Shown here: piece by piece, positions 1,471 to 54,365 of the stretch
How the letters are laid out: every line of letters begins with the position of its first letter
Numbering within the stretch: position 1 is the first letter of the stretch
Virus record (IMG/VR): IMGVR_UViG_3300021226_000131
Coordinates: 1 to 54,365 of that record
DNA: 54,365 bases
From: a virus
Taxonomy: Duplodnaviria; Caudoviricetes
Direction: 5' to 3' (one strand)
The notes under the pieces: model-generated
Seen by the model: the letters and a program-made list of their open reading frames with translations, nothing else
Database searches by the model: none
Told to the model about the DNA's origin: nothing
Program-made: the position numbers and the translations under genes

Positions 1471-1802
1471 GCACAGGATCGCACCGGATTGCACGGGAAA
1501 AATCCCACTCCGCTTGTATTCTTTCTTGCGTGTGTGCGTGTGTGTGCATATGCATAAGGGTATGTTTTATCCTGTGCGATCTTGTGCGGGGGTTAAAAAA
1601 CACAATTAAATCAAAGGGTTAGGTTGTTTTTTGCATCTTGTGCAATCTTGTGCGGCACAGGATGCATCTTGTGCCAAATGCAAAAATCAGAATGGTTCCG
1701 AGTCGCTCTCCCAGTCGTGACGCAGCCGAATTCCGATGCAAAGGTTCAATCTTGTGCGAGATGCGCCATCCGCACAGGATGGATCTGCGGGTGATCCTGT
1801 GC
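1471..1802. repeat. Iteron-like 9-bp repeat array, candidate replication origin
   Basis: GCACAGGAT-like copies on + at 1471, 1481, 1491, 1655, 1772 and inverse ATC(C/T)TGTGC at 1569, 1579, 1635, 1645, 1666, 1749, 1794; several at 10-bp spacing; overlaps the primase-helicase 3' end. Confidence 0.8.
1609..1621 (+). promoter_or_regulatory. Candidate IHF binding site
   Basis: AATCAAAGGGTTA matches WATCAANNNNTTR exactly, has an upstream A-tract, and lies between iteron clusters. Confidence 0.6.
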
Positions 1803-4338
1803 GGGAGGCCATCGGTTGGCTGCGTTTGATGCTCGGGAAAGCAGCCGAAAGCTGCCGTCCAAACGACACTTTTGTGCCTGCGTGATCGCGGCCCTGGGCC
1901 TCGCACCACTTCTTCCAGGCCTTGAAAAGCTCGTCGCGGTCGACCTGGGCGTGCTCGCTGACCACGCAAAGTTCGTCCACAAAAGCCCGGATCGGGCTGG
2001 TCTGATCGACCAAGTCGGAGGCCAGCTCGTCGGCTGATTTGGGGCGCTGGAAGTACCCGCGTTGGTTCAAGCGAAGCAGGCCGTCCAAGGCCCACAGGAC
2101 GATGCCAGGCAGCTCCTTAAGCAGTCGGTCGGTCAGGCCATGGTCCTCGCGGCCCAGGAAGCTCGTGTTGAACTTGAAGGGCAAAAACCGGTTGGCCAGG
2201 GCGGCCGAGGCGTCCGAGAAGGCGGGAAGCTCGTTGGAGGCCAGCACGAAGCGAATGGCCATCTTGCCGGACCAGGCGGTCATGTTCTTGCGGTCGATCG
2301 TGATCGTGTCCTCGCCCGAAATCCGCAGCAAGTTTTCCACGATCGGCTGCTGATCGGCCCGGCCGGACAGGCGCGCGTCCGAGATCATGGCCAGGCGCTT
2401 GCCGATCAGGGGCTGCAGGCCGAACTGCGTGCCCAGGGACGCCAGGCTTGGGCTTACCCGGTTGGCGTACCCCACCAGGGCCTCGAGGATGCGCAGGATC
2501 GTGCCCTTGCCGCAGCGCGGGGGGCCGATGAGCATGAACATCTTTTGTTGGCTGGTGTCGTCGGTCAGCAGGTAGCCGAACACCTCGGCCAGGGTGTCGA
2601 TCGACTCGGGGTCGTCGGGCCAGAGGCTGTGCAGGAATTTCAGCCACTCGGTGGGCTCACTGGCGCTGGGGTTGTAGTCAAACGCCAGGGACGAGACGCA
2701 AAACAGGCGGTCCGTCGAGGGCATGATGGTTCGCGTGGGGTGGTGCAGAAACCCGTTTTTAAAGGCCACGATCTCGTGGGCGGGAAAGTCGCCTGGTTTC
2801 GGGTCGATCCAGACCTGGGGCTCAGGCAGGTCGGCGTAGCAGACCGCGCGCAGGGCGTGGGCCACATCGTTGACCGTGCTGGTCTTGGGGTTGAAGGCCA
2901 CCGTTTCGCTGTCGCCCGTTTTGGGGTTGACCTTGAGGGTCATGCACCCGGCCATGAAGTGGTAGAGGCGCTGGTCGATGTAGACCCGGTCCCGGGTGAC
3001 GTAGCGGGTGGTGTCCCAGCTGTAGAACTCGCCGCGCCAGTGCAGGATACGCCCAGCCTCGGGCAGGGTGTCATGGAACAGGGTGGCGGTTTTCATCGGC
3101 GAGGATGAAAAAATCATTGGGGCATCGTGGCTGTCCGGTGGAATGTCGTCCGGGCCGTCGTCGGGCGGGGGTGGGTGGTCAGCGCCGCCAGAGGAGTACT
3201 CCGGGGGGTGGGCAAAAGGGTGGGCCGATTCTGCAAAGCGTTCTGCAGATTCTGCGGAATGGTTCTGCAAAGGCACATCATCCCAAGGCGCACCTTCGGG
3301 CCCGTCGTCACCAGGTGGCAGGGTCTCGGGCTCATCCGGTGAGCCTGCCTTCATGATACCGTCCTCGACTGCAATGAGGCCCTCGGCCAGGTGCAGGTCG
3401 TTGAAGTCGGTACCGGTGCCCCGGTCCACAGACCACAAGGGGATGGCCACCAGGGCGTTGATTTCTCGCGCAGCCTTGCGGGCATCGGTGATGCCCGGAT
3501 TGCCCTTGGTCTGGAAGTCATCGTCGGCCGCGATCACGATTCGGGCGTCGGGAAGGGCTGCGCGGATTTTTCGGGCGACCGGCGCCAGGTTGCCGGAGTT
3601 AAAGGCGACCACCACGCAGTGCCCGGTGGCCATGCGGATGGAGCAGCAGGTGGCCCAGCCCTCGGCGATGATGACCGTACCCTGCTTGTCGGGCTTGCCC
3701 AGGACGGTGTAGGCGCCGCCGGACGGGGTGCCTTTCAAAAACAGCTTTGTGCCGTCGGACTTGATGCGCTGCAGGCCGACCAAGGCGCCGGGGCCGTGGC
3801 GCATGGGGATGAGCAGCTCGTCGGCCAGCTGGCGGGCGCCCTCGGGCTCGATCAGCTTGCGTTGAGCGTAGGGGTGAACGGTTGGGGTGCTGGCCCGGGC
3901 CCACATCTCGGCGGCGCGTTGGGCGGCCAGCTCGCGCTCGATGCGCGCTGCGGTTTCCTCTTCGGCCATCCGGGCCTCGCGCTCAGCGATGCGGCGGGCA
4001 CGTTCTTCGGGGTCGACCGGCTTACGGTCCTGGGCTGTGGATTTGTAGCCGCCCTCTTTGGCCAAGGCGATCAGGGTGCCGATCGTGGCGCGGTTTGTGC
4101 CGCCGCCGGGCTTGCACGATTTCCAGACGTCGCGCGCGTCGCGGGGGTTGTAGTTCGAGCCCTGCTGGCTCCAGGCGTCCCAAGCATCAAAGGCTGGCTC
4201 GCCGAATTCTTCTTTGAGGATGAAGGCCATCTTCACCCAGGTTTCGCGGTCATCAACACCGCGAACGAATGAGAGCATGCGCTCTGCTGTCTCAAGGGAA
4301 ATGGGATCCCTTTGCCCTGTCGGTTTTTTTGTTGTCAT
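1687..4338 (-). CDS. Primase-helicase (PriCT-2-like N-terminus, TOPRIM, D5/P4-like SF3 helicase)
   Basis: DDRETWVKMAF..WDAWSQQGSNY (PriCT-2); IIAEGWAT and IAADDD (TOPRIM); VAFKNG, GPPRCGKGT Walker A, ASNELP, ALANRF (SF3). Confidence 0.93.
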   Translation of the reverse strand: MTTKKPTGQRDPISLETAERMLSFVRGVDDRETWVKMAFILKEEFGEPAFDAWDAWSQQGSNYNPRDARDVWKSCKPGGGTNRATIGTLIALAKEGGYKSTAQDRKPVDPEERARRIAEREARMAEEETAARIERELAAQRAAEMWARASTPTVHPYAQRKLIEPEGARQLADELLIPMRHGPGALVGLQRIKSDGTKLFLKGTPSGGAYTVLGKPDKQGTVIIAEGWATCCSIRMATGHCVVVAFNSGNLAPVARKIRAALPDARIVIAADDDFQTKGNPGITDARKAAREINALVAIPLWSVDRGTGTDFNDLHLAEGLIAVEDGIMKAGSPDEPETLPPGDDGPEGAPWDDVPLQNHSAESAERFAESAHPFAHPPEYSSGGADHPPPPDDGPDDIPPDSHDAPMIFSSSPMKTATLFHDTLPEAGRILHWRGEFYSWDTTRYVTRDRVYIDQRLYHFMAGCMTLKVNPKTGDSETVAFNPKTSTVNDVAHALRAVCYADLPEPQVWIDPKPGDFPAHEIVAFKNGFLHHPTRTIMPSTDRLFCVSSLAFDYNPSASEPTEWLKFLHSLWPDDPESIDTLAEVFGYLLTDDTSQQKMFMLIGPPRCGKGTILRILEALVGYANRVSPSLASLGTQFGLQPLIGKRLAMISDARLSGRADQQPIVENLLRISGEDTITIDRKNMTAWSGKMAIRFVLASNELPAFSDASAALANRFLPFKFNTSFLGREDHGLTDRLLKELPGIVLWALDGLLRLNQRGYFQRPKSADELASDLVDQTSPIRAFVDELCVVSEHAQVDRDELFKAWKKWCEAQGRDHAGTKVSFGRQLSAAFPSIKRSQPMASRTGSPADPSCADGASRTRLNLCIGIRLRHDWESDSEPF

Positions 4339-4969: not shown

Positions 4970-5241
4970 CGCCTGCCGTGCTCCCACACACGCCGCACCA
5001 AGGCCTCGAGCTCTAGGCAGGCCTTCTCGCCGCGCACCTGCAGGATCCCGCGCTTGACGATCTTGCCGCCTTCCTCCCGGCCGCGCAGGTACTCGCGGCG
5101 CAGGACTTTGTCGGGGATGGCCAAGATGTGGCGGGCTTCACATTCCTGACGCCAAGCCTTGCACCAAGTGCACACGGTGGTGCCGTCGATCAGTTTGGTC
5201 ACCTGGTCAGTCTCCAGGCGGTTGCATCCGGCGCAGCTCAT
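4966..5241 (-). CDS. Hypothetical protein with CxxC pairs
   Basis: ATGA-coupled to both neighbours; CAGC, CTWC. Confidence 0.7.
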   Translation of the reverse strand: MSCAGCNRLETDQVTKLIDGTTVCTWCKAWRQECEARHILAIPDKVLRREYLRGREEGGKIVKRGILQVRGEKACLELEALVRRVWEHGRR

Positions 5242-6656
5242 CGTCGTTGTGCCTCCTTGGCGTGGCGGGCGCGGAGAACATGGCGAGCCCAAAGTTCAGG
5301 CCTCTTCATGCCGCGTTGTCGGCCAATTTTTATGAGGTCCTCCAGCGTCTGCGACCTACCCTGCTCCATCTTGCGGGCCTTGATCGCTTGAGCCTTGGCG
5401 GCGTCGGTGATCTCCTGAAGCTCCCCATCCACCTCCTCGATCTCGCGCCCAACCGGCTCGAAGTGGTGGCCACAAGCGCAGTCGGTGACGATGCTGGGCA
5501 CGGTGGCAAAGCAGGCCGGGCAGGTCTTGACCGGCACTTCAGACTTCTTGGCGCCCTTGCGCTTTTCTACGGCGGCCAGGGTCCACTCGCGTTTGTCGGT
5601 CGGAAGCCCGTGGCGCTTCACGTTGCCAGCATGGTCGAGGATGATGCAGTCCTCCTTGCCTGGGTGCGTGCGCAGGCCACGGCCGACGGACTGCAAGTAC
5701 TTCACGACCGACTGCGTGGGCGCGAGTTGGATGATGCAGCCAATCGACGGGGCGTCCACACCAGCCACCCACAGTGCGCAATTGCACACAACGTCCAGGC
5801 TGCCATCGCGCAGGCCCTGCAGTGCGGCGTCGCGCTCGACGGTGTCCGAGTCACCGCTGATGGCCACGGCCCGGTACCCAGCCTGGCGAAACTGCTCGGC
5901 CACGTTGGTGGCGTGCTCGACAGTCACGCAAAACGCCACGGCCGGGCGACCGTGCGCCAGCTTGCGGTAGTGCGTGACAGCCGACCCGGTGATCACCGGC
6001 TTGTCCATCGCGGCGGCCAGCTCGCCCTGGTTGAAGTCGCCCGCAACGGTGTGCACACCGGACAGGTCCGGCTCGCTGGGGGCGTAGTAACGGATGGCGG
6101 CCAGCAGCTTCTCGTCGATCAGCTCCTGGGTACCGCAGGTGAGGATCAGAATGTCGGCCACCTCACCCATGCCCCGGCCGTCCAAGCGGCAAGGCGTGCC
6201 GGTCAGGTGCAGCAGGTGAGTGCCACCGGGCCGCTTGAACTTCGGGCCTGCGCCAGCCCACTGGAAGATGGTCTGGTAGGTGTTGGCCACGGCCAGATGC
6301 GCCTCGTCCACGATGATCAGGTCCGGCGGCTCGAACTGGTCCAAGCGGCGCACCAGAGTCTGCACCATGGCCACCTGAACCGGGTGGTGTCTGTTGCCAT
6401 CACGGCCAGCGGCGATCCAGCCGTGGTCAATGCCCGCATCGGTCAGGCGACTGCTTGTGTCGTTGAGGATTTCCTTGAGGTGCGCGATGAACCACACGCG
6501 ATTTCCTTTGGCCAGGGCGCTGTGGATCATGCAGATCGCGGTTGCACTCTTGCCAAAACCCGTGGGGGCTACCAGGATGGGCGCCTTGAAGCCGCGACGG
6601 TATGCGGCGCGCAGGTCGTCGATGGCTTTTGCTTGTCGGGGGCGAGGAATGATCAT
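5238..6656 (-). CDS. SF2 DEAH-box helicase with C-terminal zinc finger (YejH/RadD-like)
   Basis: APTGFGKS, DEAH, LTGTP, QSVGRGLR, ILDHAGN, CPAC...CACGH. Confidence 0.93.
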   Translation of the reverse strand: MIIPRPRQAKAIDDLRAAYRRGFKAPILVAPTGFGKSATAICMIHSALAKGNRVWFIAHLKEILNDTSSRLTDAGIDHGWIAAGRDGNRHHPVQVAMVQTLVRRLDQFEPPDLIIVDEAHLAVANTYQTIFQWAGAGPKFKRPGGTHLLHLTGTPCRLDGRGMGEVADILILTCGTQELIDEKLLAAIRYYAPSEPDLSGVHTVAGDFNQGELAAAMDKPVITGSAVTHYRKLAHGRPAVAFCVTVEHATNVAEQFRQAGYRAVAISGDSDTVERDAALQGLRDGSLDVVCNCALWVAGVDAPSIGCIIQLAPTQSVVKYLQSVGRGLRTHPGKEDCIILDHAGNVKRHGLPTDKREWTLAAVEKRKGAKKSEVPVKTCPACFATVPSIVTDCACGHHFEPVGREIEEVDGELQEITDAAKAQAIKARKMEQGRSQTLEDLIKIGRQRGMKRPELWARHVLRARHAKEAQRR

Positions 6657-7578: not shown

Positions 7579-7658
7579 TTGTTGGTCCTCGGTGGGAGTT
7601 GCGAAATCGCCCGCGCAAGTTGGCGCAGGCGTTCGAGGGCGGTTTGTAGCGGTGTCAT
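7575..7658 (-). CDS. Small hypothetical protein (27 aa)
   Basis: MTPLQTALERLRQLARAISQLPPRTNK fills the gap with ATGA overlaps on both sides. Confidence 0.5.
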   Translation of the reverse strand: MTPLQTALERLRQLARAISQLPPRTNK

Positions 7659-7876
7659 GGCCAGAGCACCCCCGAGCGAACCTGCTCGCGCAGCGCGGAA
7701 TAGTCGCCACACATGCATTCGTCCAGGTGGTCTGCGATGCGTTGGCGCTCGGCCACAGCCCCTAACTCTTTGAGCTTGTCGCAAAGGGCGTGAAACCCCG
7801 TGATGTTGATGTCGCTGTCCGAGCCTTTGATTTTGCAAATGCTCAAGATTCCCACTCTGATTTCTTGGTCGGTCAT
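7655..7876 (-). CDS. Hypothetical protein
   Basis: MTDQEIRVG...; ATGA overlaps. Confidence 0.65.
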   Translation of the reverse strand: MTDQEIRVGILSICKIKGSDSDINITGFHALCDKLKELGAVAERQRIADHLDECMCGDYSALREQVRSGVLWP

Positions 7877-8112
7877 GCTTGCCCCCTCATCATCTTCCAC
7901 AACACCGGCGCTGGCCGCCTGCTCAGCGCTCGCTTGCGACCGCGCATGCCTCTGGCCTTGCGGATGGGTGGTCGCCACATCAGGTTGAGGAATAGCGCGG
8001 GGGGCACGATCAGGTGCGTGGGACGCAAAGCGATGCGCTCTTCCATGGCATCGATGTGCCCAGCCATTTGCATAAGTGCCTGTTCCAGGCTTTCCTCGGT
8101 AAGTGCAGTCAT
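7873..8112 (-). CDS. Small protein resembling a major capsid protein segment, with Arg-rich tail
   Basis: Residues 3-38 align ungapped with MCP residues 166-201 (14/36 identical); ATGA-coupled on both sides. Confidence 0.7.
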   Translation of the reverse strand: MTALTEESLEQALMQMAGHIDAMEERIALRPTHLIVPPALFLNLMWRPPIRKARGMRGRKRALSRRPAPVLWKMMRGQA

Positions 8113-8390
8113 GATTCCCCCCTTGCCTTGATAGCCGCGATGCATTCCTGTGCCTGCCAGTCTGTGGCGTACCTCTTCATGTGATATTTGGCTGCGATCT
8201 GCTCGCACGCTTTCAGGCAGCCATTGCGCTCCATCGCGGCGATCTTTGCGACCAGGATCTTGGCGATTCGAATCTCGTCCTGCAGGTCAACGCCCATGCG
8301 GTAGTTGCAGATTTGCCCGTCTGAGGTTCTGAGGTTGTGCACCTCGATCAGGAACTGCTCGACGGGGTCGGTGCTTTCAAAGCTCACCAT
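8109..8390 (-). CDS. Hypothetical protein with C-terminal ERxxC...CxAAIKARG module
   Basis: SD GGAGG; C-terminus similar to 18751-19164. Confidence 0.7.
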   Translation of the reverse strand: MVSFESTDPVEQFLIEVHNLRTSDGQICNYRMGVDLQDEIRIAKILVAKIAAMERNGCLKACEQIAAKYHMKRYATDWQAQECIAAIKARGES

Positions 8391-8494
8391 GGCGCCTCCT
8401 CAGCATCGTTGAGCTGCTTGCGTTTGTACGCAGCTTCTTGCTTTGGAGTCCACGGCACGGGGCCGGTGGGCGGGGGGAATGGCCAGGTGTTCAT
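8384..8494 (-). CDS. Small Pro-rich protein (36 aa)
   Basis: MNTWPFPPPTGPVPWT...EEAPW; overlaps both neighbours. Confidence 0.6.
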   Translation of the reverse strand: MNTWPFPPPTGPVPWTPKQEAAYKRKQLNDAEEAPW

Positions 8495-8922
8495 GCAGCA
8501 CCCCCGGTTGACTTGAATTCCAGGCTTACGCTCTCGCTGTAGTAACCGTTGGACTCGCCAAGCCAACGCACATCGACATAGCCTTTGCGCGTGGCGAACT
8601 TGTAGAACGTCCAGGTGTAGGACTCTGGCTCGTATTCGAACTTGTAGTCGGCAAGGGTTTCGCCTTGAGACTCTTCGGCGATCAGGAGCGGCTCGCCGAC
8701 CAAGTCCTGGAGGTCGCCAGCGATGTCGTTGATCTCCACACGCTCGCAGCAATCTTGATGATGCAGGAAGGTGAAGACACCCTCATCGCATTTGAAGCGC
8801 ATCTCGTCATCATCGGCTTCCACACTGGTGAAGACGACGCCGAGTAAGTCCTCGATCTTTGGCTCGTAGACGATGCCACCATCCCAGCCTTTGCGCTGGG
8901 CAATTTTCTCAAGCAGGCTCAT
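8491..8922 (-). CDS. Conserved acidic phage protein
   Basis: HHQDCCERV..DI.GDL.DLVG.P...SYTWTFYK.AT.KG.V..RW.GESNGYYSE; SD GGAGG. Confidence 0.8.
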   Translation of the reverse strand: MSLLEKIAQRKGWDGGIVYEPKIEDLLGVVFTSVEADDDEMRFKCDEGVFTFLHHQDCCERVEINDIAGDLQDLVGEPLLIAEESQGETLADYKFEYEPESYTWTFYKFATRKGYVDVRWLGESNGYYSESVSLEFKSTGGAA

Positions 8923-9192: not shown

Positions 9193-9395
9193 GTGATTCG
9201 CGCCTGTCTTGATCGGTACAGAAAGCAGGTCGGGCCCGGCACACGCTCGAGCTGGCCGGATCGAATCAGGCGGCCGAGCGCGGCGTTGATGCGGCGCTTG
9301 CCCACGCGCACGGCAATGTCACGTGGCAGCTCATAGCGGATGTGCGAAATCGCACCCAACAGCTGCCGATCTGTAACAGACCGCTCACGATTCAT
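9189..9395 (-). CDS. Small basic protein, possible winged-helix
   Basis: INAALGRLIRSGQLER..FLY pattern. Confidence 0.55.
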   Translation of the reverse strand: MNRERSVTDRQLLGAISHIRYELPRDIAVRVGKRRINAALGRLIRSGQLERVPGPTCFLYRSRQARIT

Positions 9396-9660
9396 TGGCG
9401 GCCCAGTCCTGAGCGGTTCGCAAAATCAGGTCCTCGGCCGTCAGGCTCAGGCCGCGAGCCTGGGCGATGGCCAGAATTCGGCCCTGCAAAGCGGACGGAA
9501 CGGCGCCAGCGCTGCCGCCCTCGTCCTTGGGCTTGCGCCAGCGCACGACGGAGCTGGGGTTTCGCTCCAGGGCGCGGGCCAAGGCGCGTACCCCACCGAA
9601 GGCGTCGATGCACTTGTCTGCGGGGGTTTCCAGGGCTGGATCTTTGGTTTCTGCGGTCAT
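9385..9660 (-). CDS. Cro-like HTH transcriptional regulator
   Basis: IDAFGGVRALARALERNPSSVVRW...G.VP....ILAIA..RGL.LTAEDLI; first gene of the leftward arm. Confidence 0.85.
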   Translation of the reverse strand: MTAETKDPALETPADKCIDAFGGVRALARALERNPSSVVRWRKPKDEGGSAGAVPSALQGRILAIAQARGLSLTAEDLILRTAQDWAANES

Positions 9661-9787
9661 GGCGGGGGAGTGTAGCGTAAAAAGCAACACTCAACCGAAA
9701 ATATCTTAAAATAACCCACGCAAACCACTTGCAGCCCACGATTTGCGATGGCAAGATGCAGTTATCGCAACACCGACCGGAGAAAAC
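9661..9787. promoter_or_regulatory. Divergent promoter/operator region
   Basis: AT-richer gap between the arms; TACACT on - at 9669-9674; TTGCAG-17-CAAGAT on + (9729-9757); GCAACAC occurs twice. Confidence 0.55.
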
Positions 9788-15599: not shown

Positions 15600-16026
15600 A
15601 CGCCTGATGGACAAAATCCAGCGCGTGCCTTTCTCTGGTTGCTGGATTTGGACGGGAACAACAGCTCGTGGCGAATATGGCCTGATTGGCAACGGATACA
15701 CCGAAGCAGGAAATGCACGGATGGTCTACACGCACAGAGTTTCATTCCAGCACTTTGTTGGCGAGATACCGCCGGGCCAAGAGGTTTGCCATCATTGCGA
15801 TGTGCCAAGTTGTTGCAACCCAGAGCACCTTTTTTCAGGCACCCACAGTGAAAACATGCAAGACATGATTTCCAAGAAACGAGGCGACGCCTATCGCCGA
15901 GGATCACAAACAGAATGCCAGCGAGGCCACAGCCTGACTGGTGAGAACCTTCGCATCCGGCCTGACGGCCGACGTTATTGCCACCAATGCAAACTGGACT
16001 CGCAGCGCGCCAGGAGAATTAAATGA
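15577..16026 (+). CDS. HNH homing endonuclease
   Basis: SGCWIWTG...HRVSF...VCHHCDVPSCCNPEHL..GT..ENM.D; C-terminal C.RGH...C..C. Confidence 0.92.
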   Translation: MKKRPVIERLMDKIQRVPFSGCWIWTGTTARGEYGLIGNGYTEAGNARMVYTHRVSFQHFVGEIPPGQEVCHHCDVPSCCNPEHLFSGTHSENMQDMISKKRGDAYRRGSQTECQRGHSLTGENLRIRPDGRRYCHQCKLDSQRARRIK

Positions 16027-16976
16027 CAACAGAAATCATTGTGCCGAACAGCCAAGAACACTGGCTTGAGCTTCGCAAACAAGACGTCACTTCCACCGAG
16101 TCAGCGTGCTTGTTTGGTGAAAGCCCCTACATGACCCACTTTGATTTGTGGCACCGCAAGCGCACAGGTGTTGTTCCAGAGTTCAAAGCAAACGAGCGCG
16201 TTCTTTGGGGCCAGCGACTTGAGTCGGCAATTGCTTATGGAATCGCTGAAGAACAAGGGTGGGACGTTAAGCCGATGAAAGAGTATTTGAGAAATCCAGA
16301 CTTACGCATGGGTAGCTCGTTTGATTTTGTCATCACGAATCTTGGAGAACCCGTCCATCTGGAAATCAAAAACGTGGACTACCTTGCATTTCGGGATGGA
16401 TGGCTGGAACACGACGATGGGTCCATCGAGGCCCCAATCCACATTGAGCTTCAAGTTCAGCACCAGATGGCCGTGAGCGGTTTCAAGCGCGCGTTCATCG
16501 GCGCGTTCATCGCGGGCAACCGTGGCGTGGTGATCGAGCGCCTGCGCGACGACGATGTGATCGCAGCGATCCGCGCCAAGGTGGCCGATTTCTGGCGCAC
16601 GGTGGACGCAGGCCTGGAGCCCGAGCCCGTGATGCCAGGCGACGCTGAGGTGATCATTCGCATGAACCAGTACGCCAAGCCGGGAAAAATTCTGAGCGCA
16701 GAGGGCGACGACACCCTGGCCGAAATGCTGGAGCGGTACAAAAAAGCCGCCGCCGCCGAGAAGAACGCCAAGGAGGACAAGGAAGTCGCCAAGGCTGAAA
16801 TTTTCCAGCACATCGGGGACGCCGAAAAGGTGCTCACCAACGCCTGGAGCGTGAGCTGCGCGATGCAGGCCGACACCCCGCCAACGCTGATCACCGAATC
16901 GATGGTGGGCCAGTCCTACGGCGGCCGATCGGGGTTCCGAAATCTTCGAATTTACCCACGCAAGCCCACGAAATGA
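16023..16976 (+). CDS. YqaJ-like (lambda-exonuclease family) recombination exonuclease
   Basis: WLELR...TSTE...SPY...G..LE..I...SSFD...LEIKN...QVQHQM; adjacent to RecT. Confidence 0.92.
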   Translation: MTTEIIVPNSQEHWLELRKQDVTSTESACLFGESPYMTHFDLWHRKRTGVVPEFKANERVLWGQRLESAIAYGIAEEQGWDVKPMKEYLRNPDLRMGSSFDFVITNLGEPVHLEIKNVDYLAFRDGWLEHDDGSIEAPIHIELQVQHQMAVSGFKRAFIGAFIAGNRGVVIERLRDDDVIAAIRAKVADFWRTVDAGLEPEPVMPGDAEVIIRMNQYAKPGKILSAEGDDTLAEMLERYKKAAAAEKNAKEDKEVAKAEIFQHIGDAEKVLTNAWSVSCAMQADTPPTLITESMVGQSYGGRSGFRNLRIYPRKPTK

Positions 16977-17066
16977 TGGTACACTGTTTGTAAATTCCAA
17001 ACGGAACCCCCAGACGGAATCCACCCCGCAGCCGGTCGGCCACCGGCGTTTTCAGGAGCAACTCAA

Positions 17067-17924
17067 ATGAGTCAAGTCGCTGTAATCAACGAAGTCAGAA
17101 GCGCCATTGAGCGCATGTCCCCGCAATTTAAAGCAGCCCTGCCAGCGCACGTGAACGTTGACAAGTTTGTGCGCGTCACCCTGACGGCCGTGCAAACCAA
17201 CCCCAACTTGCTGGAGGCTGATCGCCGCACGCTTTTTGCCGCTGCCACCAAGGCCGCGCAGATGGGCTTGCTGCCAGACGGCCGCGAGGGCGCGATCGTC
17301 ACTTTCAAAGGCCAGGCGCAATGGATGCCAATGGTCGCAGGCATCATGAAGCTGGTGCGCAACTCGGGCGAGATCAGCACCTGGTCGGTCCAGGCGGTCT
17401 ACGAGAACGACACCTTCGATTTCTGCCTGGGCGACGAAGAGCACATCACGCACAAGCCCAACCTGTCCAACCGGGGCAAGCTGATTGCGGTCTACTCCAT
17501 CGTAACAATGAAGGACGGCGAAAAGTCCCGCGAGGTCATGAGCGTCGAGGACGTCAACCAGATCCGCGCACGCAGCCGCTCAGGCAGCTCCGGCCCCTGG
17601 CAGACAGACTTCGCCGAAATGGCCAAAAAGACTGTGGTGCGCCGCCACGCCAAGCGCCTGCCGCTTTCGACCGACATTGACGGCGTGATTCGCGAGGACG
17701 ACGAGCTGTTCATGCCACCCGAACCCGCAGAGGCGCCACGAGAGGCCGCACAAACGCCCGAAACACCATCGGCAACCAAGCGCCCCAGCCGCCTGCAAAA
17801 GGTTGCGGAACAGGCCCCACAGGCCGCCCACGCTGCCGACGCAGACGGCGTGATCGATGTGCCGCACACCGAGGTGCATGACGGCCAGGAATACGTCGGC
17901 GACGAAGCTGACAGCCCGATCTGA
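17067..17924 (+). CDS. recT: RecT single-strand annealing recombinase
   Basis: AAQMGLLPD, LVRNSGEI, VYENDTF, PW.TDF.EMAKKTVVRR..K.LPLS. Confidence 0.95.
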   Translation: MSQVAVINEVRSAIERMSPQFKAALPAHVNVDKFVRVTLTAVQTNPNLLEADRRTLFAAATKAAQMGLLPDGREGAIVTFKGQAQWMPMVAGIMKLVRNSGEISTWSVQAVYENDTFDFCLGDEEHITHKPNLSNRGKLIAVYSIVTMKDGEKSREVMSVEDVNQIRARSRSGSSGPWQTDFAEMAKKTVVRRHAKRLPLSTDIDGVIREDDELFMPPEPAEAPREAAQTPETPSATKRPSRLQKVAEQAPQAAHAADADGVIDVPHTEVHDGQEYVGDEADSPI

Positions 17925-40691: not shown

Positions 40692-41153
40692 TCAGGTGTT
40701 TTCAAACTTTGCGTTTTTCCTGCAGTTCTCAAACCACGGGATGACTTGCAAATTCCATGGGACATGAAGACCAGAAACGGTTTTTCCTTGCAAAGGAACG
40801 ATGTGGTCAACATGCCATTGAAAGCCTGTGAGCTTTGACCGCACTTGAGCAAGATGATATGCCTCGTCAACCATCCACAACTCGTCTTCTGACAACCAGG
40901 ATGGGACTCTATTTTTTAACGCAGCATCACGTTTACGCTGGTAGGCGGCACGCTTGTGTTGATTTTTTGAAAACCATTCGCGACTATAAGCATTGCGTTC
41001 TTCGGAATGTTTTTCACGATTTATTGCACAGATTTCTTTTCTTCGTTCTTGGTTATTTGAAACCCATGCGGCAGAGCGACTTTTGGTCAGCTCCTTATTT
41101 TTAAGGTACCACTCCCTTGAAAGGCGCTTTGCGTTTTCTTTGTCTCTGGCCAT
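40692..41153 (-). CDS. HNH endonuclease (free-standing homing type)
   Basis: WHVDHIVPL.G..VSGLHVPWNLQV....N..K; AT-rich compared with flanks. Confidence 0.92.
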   Translation of the reverse strand: MARDKENAKRLSREWYLKNKELTKSRSAAWVSNNQERRKEICAINREKHSEERNAYSREWFSKNQHKRAAYQRKRDAALKNRVPSWLSEDELWMVDEAYHLAQVRSKLTGFQWHVDHIVPLQGKTVSGLHVPWNLQVIPWFENCRKNAKFENT

Positions 41154-41235: not shown

Positions 41236-42150
41236 TCAAACGCCAGCTGTGCCAAAAACACCTCGTGGATCCGTCCATCCGAGGGCATAACGCTCCGTCG
41301 CTTTGTAGCGCATAGAGTCAGTTTCAAAATCCCCCTCCATGGATTTCTCCAAACCGCGACGCATCATCAGCTTCAGACCTTCGGGAGCGTCGGTCTGAAC
41401 CCACCAGGCGGTGGTGCTGGTGATACGAGACAGGTTGGCTTGGCCATCGGCCAGCAAGCCCATCGACTTCACAGGGTTGATGTCGTTGTCGGCGGTGCCG
41501 GTGCGCAGCACAGACTTCAGCAGCACTTCAGCCTGGAACACGTTAGAAGGACCGGCAACGATCTTCTTGGGTGTCAGACGGATGCGCTTGCCGTTGTTGT
41601 CCACGGCATTGCGGATCTGGATCAGCATCTGCTCGAGGGACGTCTGCGACAGGGCAGCGGCGGTGGCCAGCTGGTTGCTGAACGTGCCGTTGACGATGGG
41701 GTGAGCCGTGGAAACCAGAGACACGCCGTCACCGCCTGCATACGCGCTGTTGAAGGCTCGGTTCAGGATGTTGGCTGCCAGGGTCTCTTTGGTCTCGATC
41801 AGGGACTGCGCCAGGTGCTTGGCGTAGGTCTGACCGATACGGATGTGGTCACCGTCCTCGACCAGCACTTTGGTCAGGGCAAAGGCCAGGCCGTACACCT
41901 TGTAGAGGTAGCGCTGCAGGAACAGCACGCCGCCGGACTGGTAGGTCACGGCCATGCCATCAGGCAGCTCGGGCGCAGCACCGAAACCGTACAGGACGGG
42001 TTCTTCGTGGTAGTTGCGCGGGATGCCTTTTTGTTCGCGGAAGACTTGCTTCCACTCGTCAGCACGCTGCTCATAAACGCCGTCGAACACTTCGTTCAGA
42101 ATCGGCTCGACTACGGAACGGAAGTCCGTACTACGCATTGGGGTTGCCAT
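41236..42150 (-). CDS. Major capsid protein (HK97 fold, Mu gpT-related)
   Basis: P.LN.VF...GFG.AP...L..S...TKE..AAN.LN...GGDGV.L..T.HP...LS.TSLE...DFET...YKA.ERY..GW.DPR. Confidence 0.93.
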   Translation of the reverse strand: MATPMRSTDFRSVVEPILNEVFDGVYEQRADEWKQVFREQKGIPRNYHEEPVLYGFGAAPELPDGMAVTYQSGGVLFLQRYLYKVYGLAFALTKVLVEDGDHIRIGQTYAKHLAQSLIETKETLAANILNRAFNSAYAGGDGVSLVSTAHPIVNGTFSNQLATAAALSQTSLEQMLIQIRNAVDNNGKRIRLTPKKIVAGPSNVFQAEVLLKSVLRTGTADNDINPVKSMGLLADGQANLSRITSTTAWWVQTDAPEGLKLMMRRGLEKSMEGDFETDSMRYKATERYALGWTDPRGVFGTAGV

Positions 42151-42166: not shown

Positions 42167-42769
42167 TTAACCGACTGTGTTCACAGAAGCTTTGTACTGG
42201 TGTTCGTTGATGCGAACAGTCACTACAGCGTAAGCGTCGGTGATCGAGTCATTGATTTCGTAAGCAAAGCCAGTGATCTGGAACTGGCCAGAGGTCGCTT
42301 GCAATGCGGTGAGTTGGGTTGTGGACAAACCAGTGCGGGTCGAGCCGCCAGGCGATGCCACAGTCCAGTCGGCTTCTTCGCCAACAGCAGTTTGCATGCT
42401 GGTGACGCCAGGAGTGCCCGGATTGGTGTACTGAACGTCGAACAGCGTCTCGGGATCGTCGTAGACCCAAGCGATGATGTTCGTTGCAGTCACGCCACTT
42501 GGCCAGAAAGGGCTGATGGTGGGTTTGCCGGTAACGTCGAGGTACTGGCAGCCAGCGAAAATGCCCAACAGCTTGACGCCGTCAGTAGTTCCGCTGCGTG
42601 TGCCGTCGGATGTGCCCAGCTGGACAGTACCGTCGGCGACGAGCTTCACGGGGTCGCCCGAGAAGATGTTGGCAGCATAAGCGCTGGCAACGGTGTAGGC
42701 TTTTGGACGAATCTGACCACTGTTGTGGAAAGACGCGCGGAAGCCAAAGGGTGCGCTAGTCGAAGACAT
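42167..42769 (-). CDS. Capsid decoration/minor capsid protein
   Basis: APFG.R...IF.GD.V...GIF.GC.Y...V.DDP..LF; immediately upstream of MCP. Confidence 0.8.
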   Translation of the reverse strand: MSSTSAPFGFRASFHNSGQIRPKAYTVASAYAANIFSGDPVKLVADGTVQLGTSDGTRSGTTDGVKLLGIFAGCQYLDVTGKPTISPFWPSGVTATNIIAWVYDDPETLFDVQYTNPGTPGVTSMQTAVGEEADWTVASPGGSTRTGLSTTQLTALQATSGQFQITGFAYEINDSITDAYAVVTVRINEHQYKASVNTVG

Positions 42770-42804: not shown

Positions 42805-43335
42805 TCAGGTCAGCTCAAACTGAGCTTTCCGTTTTTGTCCAATTTCAGACATGCCATCACCCGCATCCATGCGCGACCCCGATGCACGAGCCTGTTGCTC
42901 CATGAACTCAGCCGTGTCAGTGAGCTTTTCCTCTTCGCGCAGCGGCGCGTCGTGGTGAGCTTCCTGCATGTACTTTTCGTACAGGCTGATAGGGAGTTTG
43001 AAGGCGAGCATTTCGTTGACACCGATAAAGCCCTGCCACTCGCCAGTTTTGACGGTGACATATTCCCAGCCAGGCACGTCGCTCGGCTTCAGGGGCTCGT
43101 AACCCAGACGCATACGCATGTGGATCGAGTCACGGGGGTTGGTCGTGGTTAGCCAGCAGCAATGCCAGCCATCGAGTTTGGGCAAGTCCGGAAGTGAGGA
43201 CTGGTGGAACTGCTGTCGGAACATTTCAACCCGCTCATCATCGGACAGGGCGCGCGATTCAGAAACGGCGCGATCTACCATCGCACGGTTCTCGCGGTTG
43301 TCACCAGCAGATTTCTTTAAGCGTTCGTCAGACAT
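42805..43335 (-). CDS. Conserved head-region protein
   Basis: GWH.CWL....GYEP...G.IGV..ML..K.P. Confidence 0.75.
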   Translation of the reverse strand: MSDERLKKSAGDNRENRAMVDRAVSESRALSDDERVEMFRQQFHQSSLPDLPKLDGWHCCWLTTTNPRDSIHMRMRLGYEPLKPSDVPGWEYVTVKTGEWQGFIGVNEMLAFKLPISLYEKYMQEAHHDAPLREEEKLTDTAEFMEQQARASGSRMDAGDGMSEIGQKRKAQFELT

Positions 43336-43363
43336 TTCTCGCTCCTTTCAGCGATTGGGAAAA

Positions 43364-43391
43364 ATTATAGGTTGGATTTCAAAAAACACAA
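43364..43391 (-). promoter_or_regulatory. Candidate promoter for the capsid genes
   Basis: Perfect TATAAT (43369-43364) in an AT-rich gap; only a weak -35. Confidence 0.45.
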
Positions 43392-43399
43392 CGCGATTT

Positions 43400-44401
43400 T
43401 TAAGCGCGGTTGTTTTTGTCGTATTCGGCATAGCGTTTTACGTACTTCATTCGAAGCACGGGATCGTCCCAAACGCCTGCGTCAATCAGAGCCTGCTTGC
43501 GCTCTGGGCTGATGTACACCTCGGTGCGGGTGCTGGTTGGTGCATGCTCACGGCCAGAGCCAATCGCAGGGCCGCCACGAGTCTGGCGTTGCTGGCGGGG
43601 CTCGTCGCGGGTGCCACGGTCATCGCCATGGTCGTTGCGGCGCTGGGTCTGCTTGAAGCGCTCGGGCAGGCGGCGGGCAACGCGATCGCGCAGCTCGTCC
43701 CAGTACTCCTCGGTGTCAGGCCGGAAGCCCTCGCGGTGCAGGGCGCCGTCGATGGCCAGCACAACAGCGCTGTCCTCGTCTTGGCCCTTGAGGTCGTACC
43801 AGGGGTTTTCGCTGATGAACTCCTTGGCGTAGTGCACCGCCATGTCGTCCAAACCGTCGTCTTGCTTGACCGGGCGCTGGTTGGCCGCCTGCTGCTTGGC
43901 AAACGCCAGTTGTTGCGCTTTTTGCAAGGCCTGGTCACGGTAGCGCATGGCCTGGGTGACGTCGTCCCCGTTGCCAGCGGCCACGGCCTTGGCGATCACA
44001 CGCTCAGCCATTTCGGCCTCGTTGCGGGCCTGGGCGATCTGGGCGTCGAGCTGAGACAGGTCAGCTTGGTGCGTGCGCTGCTCGACGGTACCGAGGCGGC
44101 GCTCGAGGTCGTCGTTGCGCTTGCGCAGGAAGTTCAGCTCCAGCTTGTCGCGGCTGATCGCCTCTTCGCGGCGTTGCTTGCGCTCGGCCTTTTCCTTTCG
44201 GCGGCGTTCGCGGATGGCCTCGCGCTCGGCGTCGTTTCCGTCGCCACGGTTGTCGTCGTCGTTGCCATTGAGGCGCGCGTCGCCGTCGTCATCGTGGCCG
44301 TCGTCGGCGTTGTCGTTGGGCAGGTTTTCAACGATGACCAGCTCTTCCCGGTTTTCCGGGTTGTTGCTGTTGTCGTTGTCGTCTTCGGTGAGTGCAGGCA
44401 T
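43400..44401 (-). CDS. Putative scaffolding protein
   Basis: Acidic N-terminus, long coiled coil, NPWY, EYW.EL..R; upstream of the capsid genes. Confidence 0.75.
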   Translation of the reverse strand: MPALTEDDNDNSNNPENREELVIVENLPNDNADDGHDDDGDARLNGNDDDNRGDGNDAEREAIRERRRKEKAERKQRREEAISRDKLELNFLRKRNDDLERRLGTVEQRTHQADLSQLDAQIAQARNEAEMAERVIAKAVAAGNGDDVTQAMRYRDQALQKAQQLAFAKQQAANQRPVKQDDGLDDMAVHYAKEFISENPWYDLKGQDEDSAVVLAIDGALHREGFRPDTEEYWDELRDRVARRLPERFKQTQRRNDHGDDRGTRDEPRQQRQTRGGPAIGSGREHAPTSTRTEVYISPERKQALIDAGVWDDPVLRMKYVKRYAEYDKNNRA

Positions 44402-53762: not shown

Positions 53763-54034
53763 TCTTTGACCTTTAAATTAAATCGTTCGCACTGTTCGTC
53801 AGAGGCTGGATCAAGGCTGGCTTCGTGCTTGTCAATCCATGCATCAAGGGCTGCATGCAAAGCGGCCCGGTTTCTTTGACCAACAGTGAATCCGTTTGTT
53901 GTTTTGAGTTTGTCGCCAATCAGTTCTTGAAATCCATCATCACGAGAAACCGAGAATTTTTTTTCCTCTAGCTTCAAACTCACAACAGAACCATTGCCGT
54001 AGGCAGAGATGATGCAATATTCCTGCGTTTTCAT
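53759..54034 (-). CDS. Hypothetical AT-rich inserted gene
   Basis: ATGA-coupled but visibly lower GC than its neighbours. Confidence 0.65.
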   Translation of the reverse strand: MKTQEYCIISAYGNGSVVSLKLEEKKFSVSRDDGFQELIGDKLKTTNGFTVGQRNRAALHAALDAWIDKHEASLDPASDEQCERFNLKVKE

Positions 54035-54365
54035 TCCTCACCACCCTTCGCCTTCATGAGCAGCGCCTGCATCTGCGCCAGCTCGGCGTCGCTCAGGCCT
54101 TTGAAGTCCACGCTGGCCACCGAGATCGGGGCGCCGTTGGGGCCGCTGTGCTCAACCTGCTGGGTTTCTCGCCAGCCGATCTGAGTTGTGGCCCAGAACT
54201 TCATGAGAACCGTGTCGCCCGCCATCGCCTTTTTGAAGATGCCGCCAGCGACTTGGGCGTTGGCCGTGGCCTTGCCAACAAGAAGCTCGTCGGCAAAATG
54301 TGTGCGCAAAGTATCAACGTGAATTCCGTCGCGAATCAGCGCGGCAATTTGAGGAAATGGAAGTC
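54031..54365 (-). CDS. terS: Terminase small subunit, C-terminal part
   Basis: Open to the window edge: GLPFPQIAALIRDGIHVDTLRTHF..EL..GKA.AN..V...F.KA..GD....FW....GWRE...EHSG.NG.PI. Confidence 0.85.
   Translation of the reverse strand, partial: LPFPQIAALIRDGIHVDTLRTHFADELLVGKATANAQVAGGIFKKAMAGDTVLMKFWATTQIGWRETQQVEHSGPNGAPISVASVDFKGLSDAELAQMQALLMKAKGGEE

What the first reader, a model, noticed from the sequence alone, without database searches (positions are those of the whole stretch)
7873..8112. Early-region mini-protein copying a segment of the major capsid protein: candidate capsid decoy
Seen: residues 3-38 (ALTEESLEQALMQMAGHIDAMEERIALRPTHLIVPP) align without gaps to MCP residues 166-201 (ALSQTSLEQMLIQIRNAVDNNGKRIRLTPKKIVAGP; nt 41655-41548), with 14/36 identities and conserved hydrophobic positions. 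The rest of the ORF is an Arg-rich tail. It is ATGA-coupled within the replication arm, about 33 kb from the capsid gene. Known: several defence systems sense major capsid proteins (CapRel-SJ46, Lit via the Gol peptide). Inference: a domesticated capsid fragment could act as a decoy for capsid sensors, interfere with capsid assembly of competing phages, or tether capsid partners to nucleic acid. The divergence suggests an old capture or an origin in a related phage MCP.
Basis: partly seen in the sequence, partly recalled or inferred. Interest (0 to 1): 0.85.

Follow-up and report, generated by a model that had tools for sequence, protein, structure and literature searches.

The report
Mini-protein built from a capsid fragment
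A small phage gene really does carry an old, conserved copy of the best-preserved stretch of the major capsid protein, joined to a strongly positively charged tail, and it defines an undescribed family of phage mini-proteins whose job is still unknown.

Summary
The 79-aa ORF (7873-8112, minus) is a real gene. It is ATGA-coupled at both ends and has a strong ribosome-binding site. Intact relatives of 46-96 aa fall in 38 clusters at 50% identity, and dN/dS is 0.1-0.3 in this frame.

Residues 3-41 are homologous to residues 166-204 of the phage's own 304-aa Mu gpT-type (HK97-fold) capsid protein. Smith-Waterman score is 66, against 24±4 for shuffles (0 of 5000 as high). An unbiased profile-profile comparison gives 94% probability, E 9e-8; reversed and shuffled controls give 1% or less. 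A relative passes Pfam's own Mu-like_gpT cut-off.

The capture is old: third codon positions are saturated, and the family spans phages of 40-61% GC. It does not track the resident capsid gene.

The Arg-rich tail is not junk. Its core ([KR]PPI[RK]KARGxRGRKRAL, tail net charge +8 to +14) is the best conserved part and has no relatives elsewhere.

Function is unproven. My best inference is a nucleic-acid-binding accessory protein that uses the capsid-derived piece as a protein contact. The decoy and assembly-interference ideas are neither supported nor excluded. I found no description of such a family in print.

The parts
7873..8112 (-). Mini-gene, 79 aa plus stop (P0001).
   Evidence: ORF listed and translated. 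Ten relatives of 46-79 aa at 56-91% identity. 38 small-protein clusters found by HMMER. Substitutions fall mostly on third codon positions of this frame. omega is 0.11-0.29.
7990..8106 (-). Capsid-derived module, residues 3-41. It is a helix, then the strand PTHLIVPP, then the start of a helix.
   Evidence: Homology to MCP 166-204. PTxLIVPP is the conserved core of this half, with P31 in 95% of 38 members. Residues about 10-32 are the variable patch that is swapped between near-identical phages.
7915..7974 (-). Conserved polybasic core, residues 47-66 (RPPIRKARGMRGRKRALSRR).
   Evidence: Most conserved block of the family: the commonest residue is held by 63% of members on average over residues 46-66, against 42% in residues 1-45. 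The whole tail carries net charge +8 to +14 in 38 members. It is kept in phages of 40-61% GC. No relatives of it appear in other protein contexts.
7876..7914 (-). C-terminal extension, residues 67-79 (PAPVLWKMMRGQA). It is found only in the close subgroup.
   Evidence: Absent from the 'ALYWR'-ending subgroup. Low conservation, 23%.
8117..8124 (-). Shine-Dalgarno-like AAGGGGGG, 4 nt upstream of the ATG. The ATGA overlap with the upstream gene's stop is at 8109-8112.
   Evidence: Read directly from the sequence.
8109..8390 (-). Upstream 93-aa gene of unknown family, translationally coupled to the mini-gene.
   Evidence: It is separated from the mini-gene by about 300 nt in L003 and L005, so it is not an obligate partner.
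7655..7876 (-). Downstream 73-aa gene of unknown family, ATGA-coupled. The apparent N-terminal extension from the GTG at 7978, which overlaps the tail in another frame, is not real.
   Evidence: That frame carries a TAA in L003 and L005. The gene is replaced by another in L003.
41236..42150 (-). Major capsid protein, 304 aa (P0002), Mu gpT-type HK97 fold.
   Evidence: Pfam Phage_capsid_4 at 1.8e-11 and Mu-like_gpT at 3.4e-6. The profile hits the solved JBD30 capsid protein 8rkc at 1.5e-49.
41539..41655 (-). MCP residues 166-204, the segment homologous to the mini-protein.

Best explanation
The ORF is a real gene for a 79-aa protein. It belongs to an undescribed family of 46-96-aa phage proteins with two parts.

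Part 1, residues 1-45, descends from the helix-strand-helix stretch of Mu gpT-type (HK97-fold) major capsid proteins. That stretch lies next to or within the axial domain and is the best conserved piece of those proteins. The strand PTxLIVPP is kept, and the helix before it varies.

Part 2 is a conserved polybasic motif, [KR]PPI[RK]KARGxRGRKRAL. It has no relatives elsewhere.

The capture is ancient, and the gene evolves independently of the resident capsid gene. All of this is shown, and I put it at about 0.9.

How it works is inferred, at about 0.3-0.35. I think it is a small accessory protein that binds nucleic acid through the basic motif. It would use the capsid-derived strand and helix as a protein-contact element, either for self-association or for docking on something that recognises that capsid motif. 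That would make it an adaptor acting in the DNA-metabolism and packaging part of the infection cycle, not a building block of the shell.
For: Gene reality
- Coupled starts and stops and a ribosome-binding site.
- 10 close relatives.
- 39 HMMER hits at E<=1e-3 among 1.84e9 representatives, of which 38 are 46-96 aa.
- Window against L003: differences by codon position are 3/1/9 in the N-half and 3/1/6 in the tail.
- The overlapping frame has a stop in L003 and L005.
- omega is 0.11-0.25 for the N-half and 0.29 for the tail.

Homology to MCPs
-, as set out in the observation check.
- 7 of 11 close members and 11 of 38 family members hit Pfam Mu-like_gpT at E<=1, best 2.2e-5. One more hits SU10_MCP.
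- The Pfam model scores the relative in record G003 at 20.4 bits, over its 20.1 cut-off.
- An MCP profile finds the mini-genes in 4 of 5 related records, best 1.1e-11. That profile (A3) was partly chosen through the motif.
- Member P0043 is 65% identical over residues 3-36 to the 304-aa gp086c of Caulobacter phage RLK, E 2e-5.
- The nearest ESM-Atlas clusters carry Mu-like_gpT.

Old capture, independent of the own MCP
- Nucleotide identity is 53 of 111, with third positions 12 of 37.
- Record G001 has an MCP that is 100% identical in protein, but its mini N-half differs at 35 of 135 nt.

The tail as the functional core
- Conservation and charge.
- It is kept at 40% GC.

A DNA-handling setting
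- Helicase and primase downstream in the window.
- An exonuclease near the gene in L017, and terS/terL directly after it in L021 and L022.
- An amino-acid:DNA transferase and a thymidylate-synthase-like gene in L020, and PPK2 in L019.

Also: AF2 models residues 31-70 with block-mean pLDDT 88-95, i.e. as ordered local structure, not as a floppy tail.
Against: - No nucleic-acid-binding family or fold matched the tail. Pfam, PHROGs and NCBIfam gave only capsid-type hits. Foldseek against the PDB gave 0 hits, BFVD gave nothing usable, and VIA-align's best Z was 2.2.
- The neighbourhood is not constant, so context is weak evidence. Phage early regions are full of DNA-metabolism genes anyway.
- A positive charge alone does not show nucleic-acid binding.
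- Nothing shows what the capsid-derived module touches.
- The residues shared with MCPs are mostly the hydrophobic core residues of the fold. A 40-residue fragment cannot bury these in the same way, so the module may work quite differently from its ancestor.
- Transcription is not shown. Contigs from three RNA libraries of one study hold an allele of the gene, but DNA carry-over cannot be excluded.
Confidence: 0.4

Rival explanations
1. Capsid-motif decoy or mimic. Made before or apart from the capsid protein, the mini-protein presents the conserved linear capsid motif to a host factor that recognises capsid protein. That factor could be a defence sensor, or a chaperone-linked toxin-antitoxin system that senses newly made capsid protein. 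The mini-protein blocks or misdirects it.
For: - What is kept from the MCP is a linear, highly conserved motif, which is what a broad sensor would read.
- The gene is small and mosaic, as anti-defence genes often are.
- Its helix (residues about 10-32) is a swapped, divergent patch between phages that are otherwise 96% identical. That patch is 74.1% identical, and 718 of 24,641 sliding windows are as low or lower. The same divergent patch appears in contigs of three runs.
- Its sequence does not follow the resident MCP, as expected if the target is a host factor.
- That defence systems sense capsid proteins (CapRel, Lit/Gol, CmdTAC) is recalled knowledge. For CapRel I saw only the search listing and the start of the abstract of 10.1101/2024.05.10.593582.
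Against: - There is no test of binding to any sensor.
- The host is unknown.
- Known capsid fragments such as the Gol peptide activate their sensors, they do not block them (recalled).
- The divergent patch has omega 0.25 and dS 0.83, which looks like allele replacement by recombination, not positive selection. It is one of at least nine such patches in the genome comparison.
- The most conserved part is the basic tail, which a pure decoy does not need.
Confidence: 0.12
2. Capsid-assembly modulator. The fragment pairs with capsid protein, for example by adding its strand to an axial-domain sheet or by competing during folding. It either poisons the assembly of competing phages that have Mu gpT-type capsids, or it times or regulates the phage's own assembly.
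For: - The homologous piece includes a central strand and flanking helices of the capsid fold.
- The window's mini-protein carries RPTHLIVPP, the Mu-like consensus, and scores higher against several foreign MCPs (71-84) than against its own (66).
- Satellites are known to use capsid homologues to redirect assembly: Ccm of SaPIbov5, PMC8569155 (search listing and start of abstract only).
Against: - It is not needed by all relatives in a fixed place or form.
- It does not co-vary with the own MCP.
- A dominant-negative fragment would also threaten the phage's own capsid.
- The basic tail is unexplained by this reading.
Confidence: 0.1
3. DNA-packaging accessory factor. It is a small basic DNA-binding protein that helps the terminase recognise or bend the packaging site, with the capsid-like piece contacting the prohead.
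For: - In L022 (identical copies in L023 and L024) the gene lies directly upstream of terS (phrog_1482, 2e-44) and terL.
- In L021 it lies two genes upstream of terL.
- In the window the same transcription direction leads from the mini-gene through helicase and primase to terS and terL across the record's ends.
Against: - In the window, L017, L018, L019 and L020 the gene is not next to terminase genes.
- It matches no known terminase-associated family.
Confidence: 0.1
4. Chance resemblance, or a decaying capsid pseudogene fragment read through into an Arg-rich off-frame tail.
For: - The genome is 61% GC, where off-frame ORFs are long and Arg-rich.
- The window protein's own Pfam and PHROG E-values are only about 0.01.
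Against: - Shuffle, rank and profile controls.
- Intact relatives of constant length in phages of 40-61% GC.
- Purifying selection in this frame, and a stop in the competing frame.
- The tail's core is the best conserved part.
- The tail shows no clear similarity to any frame of eight MCP genes. The best z is 3.5 among 72 comparisons, which is not convincing.
Confidence: 0.02

Closest known systems
Mu gpT-type major capsid proteins (Pfam PF10124 Mu-like_gpT, PF25209 Phage_capsid_4). The solved example is Pseudomonas phage JBD30 gp38, PDB 8rkc.
   Same: Residues 3-41 are homologous to the helix-strand-helix stretch at profile positions 219-256 of 289, with the motif (R)PTxLIVPP. The phage's own MCP belongs to this family. 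JBD30 gp38 has the canonical HK97 fold, and its Cys217, a few residues before the stretch, is assigned to the axial domain (PMC11445458, passages read).
   Different: Only about 40 of roughly 300 residues are present. There is no N-arm, extended loop or peripheral domain. The rest is a polybasic tail that MCPs lack. The gene lies outside the structural module. It cannot form a shell subunit.
Ccm of SaPIbov5 and similar satellite capsid homologues that redirect helper capsid assembly.
   Same: It is a capsid-gene derivative kept for a job other than being the phage's main shell protein.
   Different: Ccm is a full-length HK97-fold homologue encoded by a satellite (PMC8569155, listing and start of abstract only). 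Here a 40-residue fragment is fused to a basic tail inside a complete phage, and no effect on assembly is shown.
Capsid-derived triggers of bacterial immunity: the T4 Gol peptide for Lit, and capsid proteins for CapRel and CmdTAC.
   Same: These show that short or linear parts of capsid proteins can be read by host proteins, which is the premise of the decoy reading.
   Different: Those are parts of the real capsid protein and they activate defence. No separate phage gene encoding such a fragment is described in what I saw. This rests on recall, plus the listing of 10.1101/2024.05.10.593582.
Arg-rich nucleic-acid-binding tails and motifs: capsid-protein tails of small icosahedral viruses, lambda N-type arginine-rich motifs, and small basic ribosomal proteins.
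   Same: A short, strongly basic, Arg/Lys-rich segment (net +8 to +14) joined to a capsid-type segment.
   Different: No sequence or fold match to any of them was found. The resemblance is compositional and recalled. I saw only the listing of 10.1101/600981.

Membership tests
Mu gpT-type / HK97-fold major capsid protein | Match to the family model over its curated cut-off. | tested here: not met
   P0001 scores 15.5 bits against a cut-off of 20.1, E 0.011. A relative in record G003 just passes, at 20.4 bits. 11 of 38 family members hit at E<=1.
Mu gpT-type / HK97-fold major capsid protein | Full-length fold of about 300 residues with N-arm, extended loop, peripheral and axial domains. | tested here: not met
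   The protein is 79 aa, and only profile positions 219-256 of 289 are matched. No longer fused form was found. The AF2 model is four short helices with no HK97-like match.
Mu gpT-type / HK97-fold major capsid protein | Position in the head module, beside protease or scaffold, decoration and portal genes. | tested here: not met
   The gene lies between a Cro/repressor-like gene and the helicase and primase, 33.5 kb from the head module.
Homology (not membership) to the MCP helix-strand-helix segment | Significant, position-specific profile similarity, with controls. | tested here: met
   hhalign gives 94.4%, E 8.6e-8, against an unbiased MCP alignment. The reversed profile gives 0.9%, and 30 shuffles give at most 0.6%. 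0 of 5000 sequence shuffles reach the observed score.
Satellite capsid-redirecting MCP homologues (Ccm type) | A full-length capsid homologue encoded on a satellite that lacks its own complete head genes. | tested here: not met
   Only a fragment is present. The record is a 99%-complete phage with terminase, portal, MCP and tail genes.
Anti-defence decoy of capsid sensors | Binds a capsid-sensing defence protein and blocks it. | not testable with these tools
   The host and its sensors are unknown. PADLOC gave no hit for 6 family members and the 2 neighbour genes, but that library holds defence proteins, not counter-defence ones.
Nucleic-acid-binding small basic proteins | A recognised DNA- or RNA-binding domain or fold. 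| tested here: inconclusive
   There is no family or fold match. The only support is charge and conservation of the basic motif.

The most novel reading that the evidence does not exclude
The family is a phage counter-measure that mimics the most conserved linear motif of Mu gpT/HK97-type capsid proteins. Made apart from the capsid protein, it would occupy a host factor that reads newly made or unfolded capsid protein, such as a defence sensor or a chaperone-coupled toxin-antitoxin system. The basic tail would anchor it on nucleic acid or on an acidic surface. The swapped helix alleles would reflect an arms race. This would be the first dedicated capsid-epitope decoy gene in phages.
Probability: 0.12. 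Interest if true: 0.85.

Novelty: new variant of a known kind. Interest (0 to 1): 0.55.

Why it matters
Capsid genes are usually seen only as shell builders. The known exceptions are whole-protein derivatives, such as satellite capsid homologues and encapsulins.

Here a 40-residue piece of the capsid fold's best conserved stretch has been kept for a long time as the front half of an independent mini-protein, in many uncultured aquatic phages. It is joined to a basic motif that is even better conserved. That is a clear case of a new gene made from a fragment of a structural gene.

It also gives a concrete, cheap experimental handle: a 70-80-aa protein that is easy to make. With it one can ask whether phages use capsid look-alikes against capsid-sensing immunity, against rival phages, or to link capsid-type contacts to DNA.

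If it turns out to be only a small DNA-binding protein with an odd ancestry, it is still a tidy example of exaptation, but of modest reach.

Tried and rejected
1. Complex prediction of the MCP (alignment A3) with the mini-protein (A2) gave no verdict: score 0.00 in two runs, and the controls were not folded. It is no evidence either way.

2. AF2 of the MCP with an 11-row alignment failed (mean pLDDT 36.8). I could therefore not map the segment on a model of this MCP. The axial-domain placement rests on homology to JBD30 gp38 and on recalled HK97 anatomy.

3. Fold searches with the mini-protein model found nothing usable. Foldseek against the PDB gave 0 hits. BFVD gave one hit at E 8. VIA-align wide gave one chain at Z 2.2.

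4. Origin of the tail from a frameshifted MCP 3' part was tested against three frames of eight MCP genes. There was no clear signal. The best z was 3.5, for one of 72 comparisons. Rejected as unsupported.

5. Recurrent exchange between mini-genes and MCP genes was suggested by two results. Different members score best against different MCP lineages. P0043 groups with the window-type MCPs at SH-aLRT 95 on a 46-column tree. However, the AU test does not reject a single clade of all 43 mini N-halves (p 0.43; without P0043, p 0.75). A single origin is therefore not ruled out, and I make no claim.

6. The overlapping ORF 7655-7978 as the true reading of the tail region is rejected. It has a stop in L003 and L005, and the codon-position pattern favours the mini frame.

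7. A search for longer, fused forms found none among 8000 scored candidates. The only long HMMER hit, of 1392 aa, matched only the Arg-rich positions 43-61.

8. I considered whether the gene is rare among phages with this MCP. The MCP search returned 7998 clusters at E<=1e-10, against 10 for the mini-protein. The two searches differ in sensitivity and in clustering behaviour, so I do not count this as evidence.

9. Records G004 and G005 (72% and 58% complete) showed no MCP of PF05065, PF10124 or the A3 profile. They are fragments, so this says nothing.

10. RNA. Contigs of three metatranscriptome libraries from one study (X9, X14, X17) cover 7745-8017 and 8087-8341, with a same-length diverged patch between. 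That shows an allele is present in RNA libraries, not that it is transcribed. Bins without cover are not interpreted.

11. The hhalign result (97.4%, E 1e-11) used an MCP alignment in which 5 of 6 rows had been found through the motif itself. I replaced it with the unbiased test.

12. Literature. Four searches listed no paper on a stand-alone capsid-fragment mini-protein. 'Capsid mimic' had 0 occurrences in the listed papers. The 'decoy' passages in PMC13581612 concern mass-spectrometry databases only. Supplements were not consulted.
Full report
**What is there**

The window is a 54,365-bp virus record judged 99% complete. On the minus strand, 8112 to 7873 encodes a 79-aa protein.
- Its ATG overlaps the stop of an upstream 93-aa gene.
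- Its stop overlaps the ATG of a downstream 73-aa gene.
- AAGGGGGG lies 4 nt before the ATG.

The gene sits in a leftward run of small genes. A Cro/repressor-like gene lies above it (9385-9690; phrog_35, weak). A helicase (5238-6656) and a primase-polymerase (1687-4338) lie below it.

The head module is far away, on the same strand. It holds terS (cut by the right end of the record), terL, the portal, a 200-aa head protein and the 304-aa MCP at 41236-42150.

**Is the resemblance real?**

Yes.
- BLASTP gives E 4e-5.
- The Smith-Waterman score of 66 was reached by 0 of 5000 shuffles of the mini-protein (mean 24.2, sd 3.8, max 49) and by 0 of 3000 shuffles of the MCP.
- Among all 503 open frames of at least 60 aa in the window, the MCP is the best non-self match (66 against 41).
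- Curated models agree on the position. Pfam Mu-like_gpT aligns mini 3-40 to positions 219-256 and MCP 163-224 to 216-277. PHROG 371 ('major head protein') does the same. The window protein's own E-values (0.011 and 0.0099) are below Pfam's cut-off.
- All 8 weak tblastn hits in the phage collection fall in capsid genes (7 annotated as such, 1 hypothetical).
- My first profile-profile test (97.4%) was biased, because most MCP rows had been found through the motif. I repeated it with 12 MCPs collected by MCP homology alone. That gave 94.4%, E 8.6e-8, mini 3-41 against MCP 166-204. The reversed profile gave 0.9%, and 30 column-shuffled profiles gave at most 0.6%.

**Is it a gene?**

Yes.
- A word-based search found 10 stand-alone relatives of 46-79 aa at 56-91% identity.
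- A full HMMER pass over 1.84 billion representatives found 39 hits at E<=1e-3. Of these, 38 are small proteins of 46-96 aa. One is a 1392-aa protein that matches only the Arg-rich positions.
- No longer or fused form turned up.
- DNA of three close relatives shows third-position-dominated change in this frame (N-half 3/1/9, tail 3/1/6). The competing frame that overlaps the tail carries a TAA.
- Nei-Gojobori omega is 0.11-0.25 for the N-half and 0.29 for the tail. The counts are small.
- Nine more loci in IMG/VR carry family members in phages of 40-61% GC, so the Arg/Lys-rich tail is not a by-product of high GC.

**Anatomy of the family**

The parts, in order:
- a short acidic-to-neutral helix starting LTxxxLE;
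- a variable stretch;
- the strand PTxLIVPP (P31 in 95% of 38 members);
- a short helix;
- the basic core [KR]PPI[RK]KARGxRGRKRAL.

The tail as a whole carries net charge +8 to +14. The commonest residue is held by 63% of members on average over residues 46-66, which contain the basic core, against 42% in residues 1-45. The last 13 residues of the window protein exist only in its close subgroup; another subgroup ends at ...ALYWR.

AF2 with the 38-row alignment gives mean pLDDT 83.6, with 88-95 over residues 31-70, and four helices (6-22, 38-44, 55-64, 70-75). pTM is only 0.48. No solved or predicted viral structure resembles the model.

**Relation to capsid proteins across the family**

- 11 of 38 members hit Pfam Mu-like_gpT at E<=1 (best 2.2e-5), and one hits SU10_MCP.
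- NCBIfam returns only capsid-type models and one weak YajC hit.
- The Pfam model run over record G003 scores its mini-gene at 20.4 bits, just over the 20.1 cut-off.
- An MCP profile picks out the mini-genes in 4 of 5 related records.
- Member P0043 is 65% identical over 34 residues to the 304-aa gp086c of Caulobacter phage RLK. That gene is unannotated but of MCP length, and the match lies at the MCP position.
- Bacterial Mu-like prophage MCPs carry (I/L)RPTHLIVPPSL, almost the window protein's LRPTHLIVPPAL. Those loci were found through that motif, so this is illustration and not a test.
- The MCP itself is homologous to the solved JBD30 capsid protein (8rkc, E 1.5e-49). That protein has the canonical HK97 fold, and its Cys217, just before the stretch, is assigned to the axial domain (PMC11445458, passages). 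I therefore place the copied piece in or next to the axial domain. That is an inference.

**Age and independence**

- Against its own MCP the mini N-half is 53 of 111 nt identical, with third positions at 12 of 37 and no exact run longer than 8 nt. This is an old divergence, not a recent copy or conversion.
- Record G001 is about 93% identical to the window over 26.8 kb, and its MCP is 100% identical in protein. Yet its mini N-half differs at 35 of 135 nt and 14 of 45 residues, while the tail is identical over 102 nt.
- That patch is 74.1% identical against a genome-wide median of 96.3%. 718 of 24,641 sliding windows are as low or lower, and at least eight other such patches exist.
- With dS 0.83 and omega 0.25, the patch looks like allele replacement by recombination. 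The phage carries a YqaJ-RecT pair.
- The same diverged patch (8018-8086, residues about 10-32) appears in contigs of three RNA libraries of one study.
- A 46-column tree nests the MCP segments among the mini N-halves and puts P0043 with the window-type MCPs (SH-aLRT 95). But an AU test does not reject one clade of all mini N-halves (p 0.43). Single or multiple origin stays open.

**Context**

The neighbours change from phage to phage.
- In L003 and L005 the downstream gene is different, and about 300 nt are inserted upstream.
- A DUF7448 gene lies upstream in the window and in L018. It is absent in L004 and in the run contigs.
- In L022 the gene directly precedes terS and terL. In L021 it lies two genes before terL. 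The record holding L021 has an MCP 81% identical to the window's.
- L017 has an exonuclease nearby. L020 has an amino-acid:DNA transferase and a thymidylate-synthase-like gene. L019 has PPK2.

The common thread is DNA metabolism and packaging. That is true of much of any phage's non-structural genome.

**How it most likely works**

Shown: this is a selected, two-part mini-protein. Its front half is an ancient capsid-protein fragment, and its back half is a conserved polybasic motif.

Inferred: the basic motif binds nucleic acid, and the capsid-derived strand and helix make a protein contact. This adaptor-type accessory protein is my best reading, at about one in three.

The rivals cannot be excluded with these tools:
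- the decoy reading, about 0.12;
- the assembly-modulator reading, about 0.10;
- the packaging-helper reading, about 0.10.

The one complex prediction I could run gave no verdict and is not used as evidence. A decaying fragment or a chance match is, in practice, excluded.

**Novelty and limits**

The protein fails the tests for being a capsid protein on length, domain content, model cut-off and position. It passes the test for homology to one capsid segment.

Four literature searches listed no description of stand-alone capsid-fragment mini-proteins. The closest known kind, satellite capsid homologues such as Ccm, are full-length proteins.

As a result, a census of the gene across all phages with this capsid family, and the contexts of most distant members, could not be obtained.

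Noticed in passing
window 40692-41153 (-): A 153-aa gene immediately downstream of the MCP gene hits phrog_1035 'endonuclease VII' (2.8e-16) and phrog_26577. It is a possible HNH-type or homing endonuclease inserted beside the capsid gene.
   Followed up: no
window 8491-8922 (-); L018 4328-4750: The DUF7448 gene (PF24240, 5e-24) upstream of the mini-gene is present in the window. It is cleanly skipped (8489 to 8914) in L004 and in contigs of runs X1, X9, X14 and X17. A DUF7448 gene also lies 1.2 kb upstream of the mini-gene in the distant L018.
   Followed up: partly
window 54031-54363 (-) and left end: The terminase small subunit (phrog_309, 7.8e-12) is cut by the right end of the record, so the record is opened inside terS. 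No matching 3'-open piece of at least 100 aa is seen at the left end.
   Followed up: no
window 16023-17924 (+): A YqaJ-like exonuclease and a RecT form a recombination pair (PF09588 at 1e-19, PF03837 at 1e-44). This fits the patchy mosaic pattern seen against record G001.
   Followed up: no
L020 790-4449; L019 8118-8873; L021 737-1492: Relatives of the mini-gene sit beside genes typical of DNA hypermodification or nucleotide metabolism. These are an amino-acid:DNA transferase (PF18724), a thymidylate-synthase-like gene, PPK2, and a nucleotide-kinase-like gene.
   Followed up: no
window 7655-7978 (-): An ORF in another frame appears to extend the downstream gene by 34 residues over the mini-gene's tail. 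The extension carries a TAA in L003 and L005 and is not conserved.
   Followed up: yes
window 41236-42150 (-): The MCP family is very abundant in public metagenomes. 7998 of 8000 scored candidates had E<=1e-10, and the best 120 were 92-97% identical. Runs labelled estuary, seawater and freshwater hold parts of the region, but only one estuary run (X1) and three RNA libraries labelled aquatic were laid.
   Followed up: partly
window 42167-42769 (-), 42805-44401 (-): The 200-aa protein upstream of the MCP hits only an unknown-function PHROG (37556). The 176-aa and 333-aa genes before it, presumably scaffold and protease, hit nothing.
   Followed up: no
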